From the IMG/VR virus record IMGVR_UViG_2600254997_000020, positions 1-23,978 of that record: a stretch of 23,978 bases of DNA; one strand, 5' to 3'. Below are positions 11,309-13,115 of this stretch, piece after piece. The first letter of the stretch is position 1; the number at the start of each line of letters is the position of its first letter. The DNA comes from a virus (taxonomy: Duplodnaviria; Heunggongvirae; Uroviricota; Caudoviricetes). The notes under the pieces are model-generated. The model did not search any database and was not told where the DNA came from. It saw only the letters and a program-made list of their open reading frames with translations. The position numbers were made by a program, and so were the translations under genes.

Positions 11309-11353
11309 AGTTAACTTGTGAGTTATTTGTAAATAGTTCATACACAGGCCCCT

Positions 11354-11361
11354 GTTAATAC
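11354..11361. repeat. Target-site duplication (left copy) of the IS50-like element, GTTAATAC
   Basis: Identical 8-mer immediately flanks both ends of the element (11354-11361 and 12913-12920). Confidence 0.6.
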
Positions 11362-12912
11362 CTGTCTCTTGATCAGATCTCCTGATCAAGAGACTTCATC
11401 ACCAGGTAACCCTCAACCATATCCTGAAGTCTGAACCAGCCATCCCACATGACTACCCAACCGGGGCGACCGGTGCGTTTGCTGTCATGCCATCGCCCCA
11501 GTTTCGCCAGTTTCAGACAGGCCCATTTCAGTGTCGGCATCTGTGACGGAAGCGGTTTTCCTTCCAGCTTAACCCACAGCAGTTTCCACTCTGTCGGCGT
11601 CAGTATTTTCTCACAGCTGTCATTTTTGTGTTTCTTCACTGATACCGCCCTGCCGCAGGCCCAGCACCCGCACCGCGATAAACGCCTTGATAACCACCAT
11701 GCGCTCGAGGTTATCCCGGGTCTGCATTCGCAGCGATTCCACACATGTACCACCACTTTTCCACGCCTTGTGGTATTCCTCTATCAGCCAGCGTCGCTCG
11801 TAATGGCTGACGATACGTCGCGCATCGGCGGCACTCGCCACTTTTTCTGACGTCAGCAGATGCCAGCAGGCGCCGTCCTCTGCCTGCTCCCGGCAACAGA
11901 CATACGTGAGCGGGAGCGCCTGGCCGCTGTTGTCGGGATTTTTTATGCTGACTTCGCTGTAACTGATGAACATCCGGGCCTGGCGGGCTGCCCGCCCGCC
12001 TTTTTGCATCACATTCAGCGTGTGGCTTCCCGCGGTTGCCAGGACTTCCGGCAGTTCGAGGAGCTTGCCGGGTGCTTCTTCCAGCCGGCGATTCTGTGCT
12101 GCACGCACCACGAAGCGCTGCCCGTGGCTGACTTTATAATGCAGGTAATGCCAGATATCCGCTTCCCGGTCACAGACAGTGATTACCCGTTTCTGTATCT
12201 CCCCCAGCCGTTCGGCCATGCGCTCCGAAGCCTGCTGCCAGCGGTAACTTTCTTTTTCTTCATAGGGACGTTCTTTTCGCTGGTGCTTAACACCGTAGGT
12301 GTCCGTGGCACGACTCCAGCGCTGCTGTTCGATAAGACCGACTGGCAGGGCGCTGTCGGGGGCGTACATCAGGACAGAGTGAGCCAGCAGCCCGCGCGTC
12401 TTCGGGTTAGTGGTGGTATTCCCCAGGTCATCAGATGCCGTACTGTGACTGAAGTTAATGGTGGTGGTGTCTTCCAGCGCGAGGAGCAGCGGATGAGCCT
12501 CACATGCCCTTACAGTGGCGGTAAATCCGGCTTCGGCAATGGCTTGCGGGGACACAGACGGGTTACGTATCAGGCGGTACGCACCTTCAACCTGAGCAGT
12601 GGACTGGGATGATTTCACAATAGAAAGACCTGCATGCTGAGCGAGAGAAGAGGCCAGTGACACAAGGCGTCGTGTACGACGCGGATCACCGAGACGGGCA
12701 TGTCCAAACTGCTCGTTAGCCCATGAATAACAATCAGAAAGTACCATAACAGACCCGAAGAAAATGAAATATAAGAGAAGATCAACGGGTGAGGAAAAAG
12801 TTCAAAAAATCGCTGCCGGGGAGGAAGGAAACTACCGGATGGAAAGAGTCCCCCTAAAGCAGACTGACAGACATCACAAATCCCCGGGTGGGGATTTGTG
12901 TATAAGAGACAG
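11362..12912 (-). mobile_element. IS50-like insertion sequence (IS4 family, Tn5/IS50 group), about 1551 bp
   Basis: Left end CTGTCTCTTGATCAGATCT matches the IS50 inside end as I recall it. Right end (reverse complement) CTGTCTCTTATACACAAAT resembles the IS50 outside/mosaic end. Transposase resembles Tn5 Tnp (ALGDPRRT..., VCDREADI..., YxxRWxIEEFHKAWK, C-terminal DSKRTG...W.GW), and its stop lies in the inside end as in IS50. Confidence 0.85.
11373..12747 (-). pseudogene. IS50-like transposase, frame broken by a single-base indel near 11625-11650
   Basis: ORF 11620..12747 carries the N-terminal and catalytic regions; ORF 11373..11756 carries the C-terminal region (LTPTEWKLL...DSKRTGRPGWVVMWDGW...) in a different frame. 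Confidence 0.8.
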
Positions 12913-12920
12913 GTTAATAC
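12913..12920. repeat. Target-site duplication (right copy) of the IS50-like element, GTTAATAC
   Basis: Same 8-mer as 11354-11361. Removing the element and one repeat copy restores a hairpin plus T-tract after ssb. Confidence 0.6.
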
Positions 12921-13115
12921 AGGGGATTTTTATTTCTAGTAACTATAAGAGGTGTTAATTATTAATTGACAATCTTTAGTGTTTCGCGCACCTTGCAAGT
13001 ATCCAATATTTACTGATTGTGGACGCATAAAGAAGATCCACAGCGTTACAAATTTGTATTTCTTTCTTCAGCAATTAAGCAGGCGACTTGCTCTATCCTG
13101 CCCAAAGGAACACGT

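What the first reader, a model, noticed from the sequence alone, without database searches (positions are those of the whole stretch)
11330..12945. IS50-like element inserted precisely into the ssb terminator hairpin, with an 8-bp duplication
The element is flanked by identical GTTAATAC copies. Removing it and one repeat copy reconstructs ...ACAGGCCCCTGTTAATACAGGGGATTTTTATTT, a stem-loop (CCCCTG / CAGGGG) followed by a T-tract, which is the expected ssb terminator. The insertion therefore separates ssb from its terminator and places the transposase antisense to ssb read-through. The inside end is identical to the IS50 inside end as I recall it, while the transposase is clearly divergent from Tn5 transposase.
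Basis: partly seen in the sequence, partly recalled or inferred. Interest (0 to 1): 0.5.

Follow-up and report, generated by a model that had tools for sequence, protein, structure and literature searches.

The report
ISEc13 inserted in ssb terminator hairpin
A copy of the known E. coli insertion sequence ISEc13 (a Tn5/IS50 relative) sits in the loop of the terminator-like hairpin after the ssb gene of a P1-like phage-plasmid; this is an ordinary, recent insertion, and the placement is expected because ISEc13 prefers sites of the form CCCCT-N8-AGGGG.

Summary
Window 11362-12912 is a 1551-bp element flanked by GTTAATAC direct repeats. Removing it and one repeat gives a sequence 100% identical to the uninterrupted site in phage vB_EcoM-673R5. 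That empty site is also present in 52 PLSDB plasmids and 63 RefSeq E. coli genomes, and none of them carries the insertion.

The element is not new. It is ISEc13 (IS4 family, IS50 subgroup), 99.9% identical to the copies in EPEC E2348/69. The window is a contig of EPEC E851/71.

Its transposase-3' end is 19/19 identical to the real IS50 inside end and the other end is 17/19 to the outside end. The transposase is only 39% identical to Tn5 transposase.

This copy has two private changes: F230L and a +1 A in an A4 run. The second truncates the transposase at 375 of 457 residues, removing the dimerisation domain, so the copy is either defective or the base is a homopolymer sequencing error.

New here: 19 independent ISEc13 insertions share a dyad-symmetric target, CCYCY-(N7-10, mostly 8)-RGRGG, mostly at gene 3' ends. 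The perfect form CCCCT-N8-AGGGG occurs once in the IS-free window, at the ssb hairpin. Terminator function and read-through are inferred, not shown.

The parts
10820..11308 (+). ssb gene (162 aa), upstream neighbour of the insertion
   Evidence: ORF. It is 97-98% identical to P1, P7 and SJ46 ssb. Pfam SSB on the called gene.
11349..11355 (+). Left half-stem (CCCCTGT) of the terminator-like hairpin, now separated from its partner
   Evidence: The intact hairpin is seen in L001 3550-3567.
11354..11361 (.). Left copy of the 8-bp target-site duplication GTTAATAC
11362..12912 (-). ISEc13 copy, 1551 bp (the reference element is 1550 bp)
   Evidence: 99.9% identity over its full length to copies annotated 'IS4-like element ISEc13' in E. 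coli E2348/69 and others.
11362..11380 (+). Terminal repeat at the 3' side of the transposase gene, identical (19/19) to the IS50 inside end. It contains two GATC sites and the TGA stop codon position of the intact ISEc13 transposase reading frame.
   Evidence: Direct comparison with IS50 in L147
11364..11394 (.). Perfect 13-bp subterminal hairpin (GTCTCTTGATCAG-ATCTC-CTGATCAAGAGAC) overlapping the inside-end-like repeat
   Evidence: Fold energy -23.7 (+ strand) and -21.6 (- strand) kcal/mol, z about -5.3 and -5.9
11620..12747 (-). Truncated transposase ORF (375 aa). It has the N-terminal DNA-binding domain and the DDE domain with an intact DDE/YREK region. F230L is caused by G at 12060.
   Evidence: Pfam PF14706 (E = 9e-20) and PF01609 (E = 2e-7).
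11623..11627 (.). T5 run (A5 on the transposase sense strand). The extra base is the +1 frameshift, giving ...EETQK-stop.
   Evidence: Alignment to the reference copy. 47 other copies have A4; only the window has A5.
11373..11639 (-). Out-of-frame remnant encoding the C-terminal Tn5-type dimerisation domain (88 aa)
   Evidence: Pfam PF02281, 27.8 bits, E = 3e-6
12875..12900 (.). Perfect 11-bp subterminal hairpin (CACAAATCCCC-GGGT-GGGGATTTGTG) overlapping the outside-end-like repeat
   Evidence: -18.6 kcal/mol, z = -5.3
12894..12912 (-). Terminal repeat at the 5' side of the transposase gene (CTGTCTCTTATACACAAAT), 17/19 to the IS50 outside end
12913..12920 (.). Right copy of the 8-bp target-site duplication GTTAATAC
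12919..12935 (+). Right half-stem (ACAGGGG) plus T-tract (ATTTTTATTT) of the terminator-like hairpin
13116..14471 (+). Downstream neighbour: anti-phage dGTPase gene (451 aa), not interrupted
   Evidence: NCBIfam NF041026, 570.7 bits. Annotated the same way in related plasmids.

Best explanation
An ISEc13 element (IS4 family, IS50 subgroup; cut-and-paste DDE transposase) transposed into a P1-like phage-plasmid of EPEC strain E851/71.

It landed on the dyad axis of the small GC-rich hairpin plus T-tract that lies 41 nt after the ssb stop codon. This happened because ISEc13 transposase prefers targets of the form CCYCY-N8-RGRGG. Staggered strand transfer at the inner edges of the two arms duplicated the central 8 bp (GTTAATAC), that is, the loop plus two stem pairs.

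The insertion is recent and lineage-specific. It splits the presumptive ssb terminator and leaves the transposase gene convergent with ssb.

This copy then acquired, or was mis-sequenced with, a +1 frameshift that removes the C-terminal dimerisation domain. As written, it cannot transpose on its own.

Shown: the identity of the element, the ends, the duplication, the empty site, the target consensus and the frameshift. Inferred: terminator function, ssb read-through into the element, and loss of transposase activity.
For: Element identity:
- 99.9% over 1550/1551 bp to annotated ISEc13 copies. It is present in 2992 of 5426 complete E. coli genomes, with 30 places in the E2348/69 chromosome.

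Empty site:
- Exact in phage 673R5, and present in 52 plasmids and 63 genomes.
- The occupied junction is found in 0 records in each of three collections.
- The window is 100.0% identical to plasmid NZ_CP128256.1 on both sides of the element.

Source:
- Contig ALNX01000038.1, E. coli E851/71.

Target preference:
- In 19 independent ISEc13 sites, C is 19/19 at positions -4 and -2 and G is 19/19 at +2 and +4. In the table (20 sites, one locus counted twice, so 19 independent), there is no purine at -4 to -2 and no pyrimidine at +2 to +4.
- Duplications are 8 bp in 12 of those 20 rows, 9 bp in 5, 7 bp in 2 and 10 bp in 1.
- The 12 sites sampled without any flank bias show the same pattern.
- CCCCT-N8-AGGGG occurs once in the 22.4-kb IS-free window, at this hairpin (0.018 expected).
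- Most sampled sites lie just downstream of genes or between convergent genes: tRNA-Pro, lamB, yccJ, rcnB, tldD, finO.

Family:
- phmmer E = 6e-84 to Tn5 transposase structures.
- Pfam Tnp_DNA_bind, DDE_Tnp_1 and Dimer_Tnp_Tn5.
- Ends 19/19 and 17/19 to real IS50.

Hairpin:
- -12.9 kcal/mol, z = -3.4, the only terminator-like hit near ssb in the empty-site relative.

Frameshift:
-.
Against: - No transcript data exist, so the hairpin's terminator activity and any read-through are unproven.
- The hairpin is invariant among relatives, so there is no covariation support for it.
- All other P1-like phages searched (P1, P7, SJ46, RCS47 and others) diverge immediately after the ssb stop codon. The hairpin therefore belongs to the dGTPase-module lineage and is not a universal ssb terminator.
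- The A5 run may be a homopolymer sequencing error in a draft assembly, in which case the copy is intact.
- Four of the 23 sampled full-length ISEc13 copies (rows) lack direct repeats, and a few have 7, 9 or 10 bp, so '8 bp' is a mode and not a rule.
Confidence: 0.9

Rival explanations
1. The insertion site is a chance event. ISEc13 integrates nearly at random, like Tn5, and happened to hit the hairpin loop.
For: Tn5/IS50 itself has only a weak target consensus (discussed in PMC1525189). One ISEc13 copy interrupts a coding gene, a fimbrial usher.
Against: The arm positions flanking the duplication are invariant at four positions in 19 of 19 independent sites. For random sites the chance is about 0.004 per site. 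The window's only perfect CCCCT-N8-AGGGG site is the occupied one. Even the usher insertion has CCTCT / GGGGG arms.
Confidence: 0.03
2. ISEc13 recognises DNA structure (an extruded hairpin, cruciform or terminator as such) rather than a sequence. The duplication length would be set by the loop or inner-stem size.
For: Targets fold as hairpins of -7 to -23 kcal/mol, and the duplication length (7-10 bp) usually follows the spacing between the arms. In relatives with 45-50% amino-acid identity (Alishewanella, Alteromonas), the arms differ between sites but stay complementary (CCCG/CGGG, GCCA/TGGC, GGCT/AGCC). Those sites lie between A-runs and T-runs, and duplications are 8-12 bp.
Against: For ISEc13 itself, complementarity stops at the 5-bp conserved arms: 5-7 of 19 pairs at positions 6-7, which is chance level. 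The inner duplication positions pair at chance level (5, 9 and 5 of 19). The variable Y/R arm positions do not covary: C-A and T-G combinations are as common as T-A. This fits two protomers each reading a CCYCY half-site on duplex DNA.
Confidence: 0.15
3. The hairpin is not the ssb terminator. It could be another palindromic element, such as a REP-like repeat, a protein-binding site, or the boundary of the dGTPase defence module.
For: Homology to the other P1-like phages searched ends at the ssb stop codon, so the hairpin travels with the downstream module. No terminator is annotated after ssb in P1.
Against: The hairpin has a strand-specific T-tract on the ssb sense strand only, lies 41 nt after the stop codon, and is the only terminator-like hit in the interval. 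Its energy is well below shuffled sequences.
Confidence: 0.15
4. The frameshifted transposase is functional through programmed slippage on the A5 run. The copy would be a regulated variant rather than a dead one.
For: A-runs are slippery. Several IS families (IS1, IS3) use programmed frameshifting (established knowledge).
Against: All 47 other sampled copies have A4 and one continuous 457-aa ORF. The exact 375-aa product is on record on one contig only. IS4-family transposases are single-ORF by definition (PMC2266710).
Confidence: 0.03

Closest known systems
ISEc13 (IS4 family; NCBI 'IS4-like element ISEc13 family transposase', WP_000244358.1; e.g. E. coli E2348/69)
   Same: 99.9% nucleotide identity end to end, with the same terminal repeats and the same gene layout. 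Other copies also give 8-bp duplications at CCYCY/RGRGG-flanked sites.
   Different: One extra A (A5 versus A4) truncates the transposase at residue 375 of 457. There is one private substitution, F230L. The insertion site is not seen in any searched record.
IS50 / Tn5
   Same: Same three-domain transposase (E = 1e-96), with the DDE and Y-x2-R-x3-E-x6-K motif. The inside end is 19/19 identical, including both GATC sites and a stop codon lying inside the end. The outside end is 17/19. The end arrangement relative to the gene is the same.
   Different: Only 39% amino-acid identity, and no nucleotide similarity apart from the ends and one 75-nt internal stretch of 73% identity. Length is 1550 versus 1534 bp. 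The duplication is mostly 8 bp rather than 9 bp (9 bp for Tn5 per PMC1525189). ISEc13 has a strong dyad-symmetric target consensus, whereas Tn5's is weak. In the alignment no methionine aligns at the position of the Tn5 inhibitor-protein start (Met56 from my own knowledge).
IS231A target preference, GGG(N5)CCC with 10-12-bp duplications (own knowledge: Hallet et al. 1994; its insertion specificity is mentioned in PMC2266710)
   Same: An IS4-family element with a dyad-symmetric, G/C-arm target and a duplication of variable length.
   Different: Different subgroup, opposite arm polarity (GGG...CCC versus CCC...GGG), different spacing, and a Gram-positive host. The IS231A consensus was not tested here.
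REP/palindrome-targeting insertion sequences (IS1397, ISPpu9/10, ISRm22; PMC1525189)
   Same: Insertion into short extragenic palindromes at gene ends, a location that avoids gene disruption. ISRm22 is an IS4-family example.
   Different: Those elements target specific repeat families. ISEc13 targets any site with the 5-bp arms, many of which are unique terminators.
IS1 in phage P1, about 1.1 kb downstream of ssb
   Same: An insertion sequence resident in the variable region just after ssb in a P1-type genome.
   Different: Unrelated IS family, a different position (after isaA), and no hairpin involvement shown.

Membership tests
ISEc13 (same element or isoform) | Nucleotide identity above 90-95% over the full length with the same ends | tested here: met
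   99.9% over 1550/1551 bp; one indel and one substitution
IS4 family | DDE catalytic triad with the Y-x2-R-x3-E-x6-K signature | tested here: met
   LEDTT (residue 91 onward), VCDREAD (191 onward) and YERRWLIEEYHKAWK (316 onward), aligned to Tn5 D97/D188/E326. Family definition from PMC2266710.
IS4 family | Transposase encoded by a single ORF | tested here: not met
   Reference copies have one 457-aa ORF. The window copy is split into 375 aa plus an out-of-frame 88-aa remnant by a +1 A. This is a defect of this copy, not of the element.
IS50 subgroup | Terminal repeats beginning 5'-CT (5'-NT) and resembling the IS50 outside and inside ends | tested here: met
   19/19 to the inside end and 17/19 to the outside end of a real IS50. 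The 5'-NT rule is from PMC2266710.
IS50 subgroup | Tn5-type N-terminal DNA-binding domain and C-terminal dimerisation domain | tested here: met
   PF14706, E = 1e-19. PF02281 scores 24.1 bits in the intact protein (just under the 26.7 cut-off) and 27.8 bits in the isolated remnant. Full-length alignment to Tn5 structures, E = 6e-84.
IS50 subgroup | Target duplication of about 9 bp | tested here: inconclusive
   Here it is 8 bp. Across the 20 rows with a duplication: 8 bp in 12, 9 bp in 5, 7 bp in 2 and 10 bp in 1. This is close to but not equal to the 9 bp of Tn5.
Intrinsic (rho-independent) terminator of ssb | GC-rich stem-loop immediately followed by a T-tract on the sense strand, downstream of the stop codon | tested here: met
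   7-bp stem (5 G-C pairs), 4-nt loop, ATTTTTATTT, 41 nt after the ssb stop codon. It is the only such hit in 1.2 kb. -12.9 kcal/mol, z = -3.4.
Intrinsic (rho-independent) terminator of ssb | Transcripts actually end there | not testable with these tools
   No transcriptome data. The site is invariant among relatives, so there is no covariation test.

The most novel reading that the evidence does not exclude
ISEc13 and its wider clade of IS50-subgroup elements are terminator/palindrome-seeking insertion sequences. ISEc13 reads a 5-bp half-site on each side (CCYCY ... RGRGG) and places its ends at the inner edges of the arms. The duplication length (7-10 bp; 8-12 bp in distant relatives) would then be set by the arm spacing rather than by a fixed transpososome geometry.

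This would be a 'safe-haven' strategy that parks copies at gene 3' ends. It would also be a natural Tn5 relative with strong, engineerable target selectivity. I found no description of it in the searchable literature, but ISfinder could not be consulted.
Probability: 0.45. Interest if true: 0.45.

Novelty: already known. Interest (0 to 1): 0.27.

Why it matters
As a finding, it is a routine annotation: a named insertion sequence newly inserted in a P1-like phage-plasmid of an EPEC strain whose lineage is rich in that element.

It has practical value in three ways:
- It is a clean, datable marker of this plasmid lineage.
- It flags that ssb has lost its presumptive terminator.
- It flags that the copy is probably defective.

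The side result is of some wider interest. ISEc13 has a strong dyad-symmetric target (CCYCY-N8-RGRGG), which explains why its copies pile up in terminator-like hairpins at gene ends. Tn5 transposase is a major biotechnology enzyme valued for near-random insertion. A close structural relative that uses the same ends but has marked target selectivity could help to understand or engineer target choice.

Tried and rejected
- I looked for the same occupied junction in phages, PLSDB plasmids and RefSeq E. coli genomes. None was found, so there is no independent confirmation of the insertion from another assembly.
- A literature search for 'ISEc13' returned only strain surveys that list the name. The IS4-family review predates the element and gives no text on IS50-subgroup target choice. 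A search for terminator-targeting IS4 elements found only the REP-target paper.
- I considered hairpin-structure recognition for ISEc13 and rated it less likely after the pairing counts.
- I considered that the 9-bp duplications might be 8 bp plus a chance match. That is logically impossible for non-homopolymer repeats, so they are real.
- The promoter scan found no sigma-70-like sites in 10600-13300, so there is no support for an outward promoter from the element driving the dGTPase gene.
- The hybrid hairpin at the right junction (the element's CCCC pairing with the flank's GGGG, -16.1 kcal/mol) is not better than shuffles (z = -1.7), so I make no claim from it.
- Covariation support for the terminator was not obtainable, because all relatives are at least about 99% identical at the site.
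Full report
**1. What is in the sequence**

ssb (10820-11308, + strand) is followed 41 nt later by CCCCTGTTAATAC. At 11362 a 1551-bp element begins with CTGTCTCTTGATCAGATCT. It ends at 12912 with ...ATTTGTGTATAAGAGACAG and is followed by GTTAATAC-AGGGG-ATTTTTATTT.

GTTAATAC is present at 11354-11361 and at 12913-12920. Inside the element, on the minus strand, a 375-aa ORF (12747 to 11620) is followed out of frame by a further ORF that runs to 11373.

**2. The empty site exists**

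Removing the element and one repeat copy gives a sequence 100% identical over 162 bp to Escherichia phage vB_EcoM-673R5, a Punavirus. There, ssb is followed directly by the hairpin and then by a dGTPase-like gene.

A 300-bp reconstruction is found at >=80% coverage in 52 PLSDB plasmids and 63 complete RefSeq E. coli genomes, many at 100% identity. A query spanning the occupied left junction is matched across the junction by no record in either collection, and no phage record spans the occupied site.

The whole window is 99.7-100.0% identical to P1-like plasmids such as NZ_CP128256.1, in two pieces that flank the element. The insertion is therefore real, recent and private to this lineage.

The window is the entire contig ALNX01000038.1 of assembly GCA_000754045.1. 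ALNX00000000 is E. coli E851/71 (PMC3897749).

**3. What the element is**

Megablast gives 99.9% identity over the full length to copies annotated 'IS4-like element ISEc13 family transposase'. There are 30 places in the E2348/69 chromosome, and the element occurs in 2992 of 5426 complete E. coli genomes. The reference element is 1550 bp with a single 457-aa ORF.

The window copy differs at two positions:
- an extra T in the run at 11623-11627, which is A5 instead of A4 on the coding strand;
- G instead of A at 12060, which gives F230L.

The extra A changes ...EETQNDSCEK... to ...EETQK-stop. The product keeps the DNA-binding domain (PF14706) and the DDE domain (PF01609). The Tn5-type dimerisation domain (PF02281) is left on the out-of-frame 88-aa remnant. 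The exact 375-aa product is on record on this contig only.

From established knowledge of Tn5 transposase, the C-terminal domain is needed for synaptic-complex formation. As written, the copy should therefore be non-autonomous. A homopolymer error in a draft assembly cannot be excluded.

**4. Relation to IS50**

The intact ISEc13 transposase matches the solved Tn5 transposase structures over its full length (E = 6e-84). BLASTP against the transposase of a real IS50 gives 39% identity (E = 1e-96). That IS50 lies next to aph(3')-IIa on plasmid pMAK2 (L147).

In that IS50 the outside end is CTGACTCTTATACACAAGT and the inside end is CTGTCTCTTGATCAGATCT. The ISEc13 end at the 3' side of the transposase gene is 19/19 identical to the inside end, and the other end is 17/19 to the outside end.

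As in IS50, the transposase stop codon lies inside the inside-end repeat, and both GATC sites are kept (sequence). Apart from the ends and one 75-nt internal stretch of 73% identity, there is no nucleotide similarity. The DDE and Y-x2-R-x3-E-x6-K motifs are intact.

**5. The hairpin**

In the empty-site relative, the consensus scan finds exactly one terminator-like site in 1.2 kb around ssb: CCCCTGT-TAAT-ACAGGGG followed by ATTTTTATTT. It folds at -12.9 kcal/mol with z = -3.4, and none of 200 shuffles folds as well. The T-tract is on the ssb sense strand only.

The 8-bp duplication is the 4-nt loop plus two stem pairs on each side, centred exactly on the dyad.

In the window no terminator-like site remains at either junction. 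On the + strand inside the element there are five terminator-like sites, for example GGCGGGC...GCCCGCC TTTTT at 11982-12000. This count is not above chance (2.7 +/- 1.8 expected).

It is inferred, not shown, that ssb transcripts now run into the element antisense to the transposase gene and may stop there.

A caveat applies. All other P1-like phages searched (P1, P7, SJ46, RCS47 and others) lose homology right at the ssb stop codon, and P1 carries isaA and IS1 there. The hairpin is therefore a feature of the lineage that carries the dGTPase module.

**6. Why the insertion is so precise**

I collected full-length ISEc13 copies with their flanks from E. coli records and from metagenome and genome contigs.

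Findings from the 19 independent sites with a duplication:
- The bases just outside the duplication are almost invariant.
- On one side: C at -4 and -2 in 19/19, pyrimidine at -3, and pyrimidine at -1 in all but one row of the table, C favoured at -5.
- On the other side: G at +2 and +4 in 19/19, purine at +3, and purine at +1 in all but one row of the table, G favoured at +5.
- The consensus is CCYCY-N-RGRGG, most often CCCCT-N8-AGGGG.

The 12 sites sampled without any bias from flank similarity show the same pattern. Four later loci were chosen from junction hits (three of them yielded sites with a duplication) and could be biased on one arm.

Duplications are 8 bp in 12 of the 20 rows with a duplication (one locus was counted twice), 9 bp in 5, 7 bp in 2 and 10 bp in 1. 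In the 22.4-kb window with the element removed, CCCCT-N8-AGGGG occurs once, at the ssb hairpin (0.018 expected from composition).

Most sampled sites lie just after genes or between convergent genes: tRNA-Pro, lamB-malM, yccJ/agp, rcnB/yehA, tldD/aaeR, finO, MGMT/ybaY (annotation tables). Several have T-tracts.

Insertion into the ssb hairpin is therefore typical ISEc13 behaviour and not a coincidence.

**7. Sequence or structure?**

For ISEc13, complementarity between the flanks ends with the five conserved positions: 5-7 of 19 pairs at positions 6-7. The inner positions of the duplication pair at chance level. The variable Y and R positions do not covary: C-A and T-G combinations are as frequent as T-A.

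This favours two transposase protomers each reading a CCYCY half-site on duplex DNA. That is the usual origin of dyad-symmetric target consensuses in this family (IS10 and IS231A, from my own knowledge). Such a site is automatically a short GC-rich hairpin, which is why terminators are hit.

In relatives with 45-50% amino-acid identity (Alishewanella, Alteromonas and others), the elements keep the same two end types. They sit in A-run/GC-stem/T-run palindromes whose arms differ between sites but remain complementary, with duplications of 8-12 bp. Structure recognition is therefore not excluded for the wider clade.

**8. Comparison with what is known, and novelty**

The element is already known and named, and the event is a new instance of an ordinary process.

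I found no paper describing ISEc13 target choice. The IS4-family review notes target-arm conservation in other subgroups and variable-length duplications (PMC2266710). REP-targeting elements, including the IS4-family ISRm22, are documented (PMC1525189). ISfinder could not be consulted, so the target preference may already be recorded there.

**9. Verdict**

I refine them in three ways: the element is ISEc13, the site was chosen by target preference, and this copy is frameshifted. The terminator function and the consequences for ssb and for the neighbouring anti-phage dGTPase gene (NF041026) remain to be tested. Interest is low to moderate.

Noticed in passing
window 68-1343 and 22704-23978: Both ends of the contig are inverted copies (98-100% complementary) of a second IS4-family element with split transposase ORFs (NCBIfam NF033591; IS10-like by size is my reading). 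Homology to related P1-like plasmids spans exactly 1332-22715. The phage segment is therefore bracketed by inverted IS copies, or the assembler ran into the same repeat from both sides.
   Followed up: partly
window 13116-14471 (+): The gene immediately right of the insertion is an anti-phage dGTPase (NF041026, 570 bits) carried by a P1-like phage-plasmid. It is intact here but annotated as two fragments in phage vB_EcoM-673R5 (L001 3758-5111).
   Followed up: partly
window 11364-11394 and 12875-12900: ISEc13 has perfect 13-bp and 11-bp hairpins that overlap its two terminal repeats (z about -5 to -6). The 13-bp one is an internal inverted copy of positions 3-15 of the inside-end repeat and is encoded within the last codons of the transposase. 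Its function is unknown; it might control read-through or end usage.
   Followed up: partly
L103-L109, L132 (Alishewanella); L062, L128, L070: Distant relatives of ISEc13 (45-50% amino-acid identity) sit in bidirectional-terminator-like palindromes. Their target duplications are 8, 9, 10 and even 12 bp for one and the same element, apparently following the spacing of the GC arms.
   Followed up: partly
L066, L073, L083: In these relatives the two flanks are reverse complements of each other rather than direct repeats (for example ...CCCCGGCAAAGCC | IS | GGCTTTGCCGGGG...). This is unexplained. One possibility is recombination between copies inserted in oppositely oriented REP-like palindromes.
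   Followed up: no
window 11827-12244 (+ strand, inside ISEc13): There are five terminator-like hairpin-plus-T-tract sites on the strand antisense to the transposase gene, the strongest at 11982-12000 (7 G-C pairs plus TTTTT). The count is not significantly above shuffles (2.7 +/- 1.8).
   Followed up: no
L043-L053 and many F-type plasmids: A shorter ISEc13 variant (about 1539 bp, 96-97% amino-acid identity) recurs at what appears to be one and the same site, between finO and a hok/gef family gene in pMAR2 (L012). It is seen in many metagenome contigs. Hundreds of conjugative plasmids also carry partial matches to ISEc13, which may be the same variant inherited with the plasmid backbone rather than repeated insertions.
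   Followed up: no
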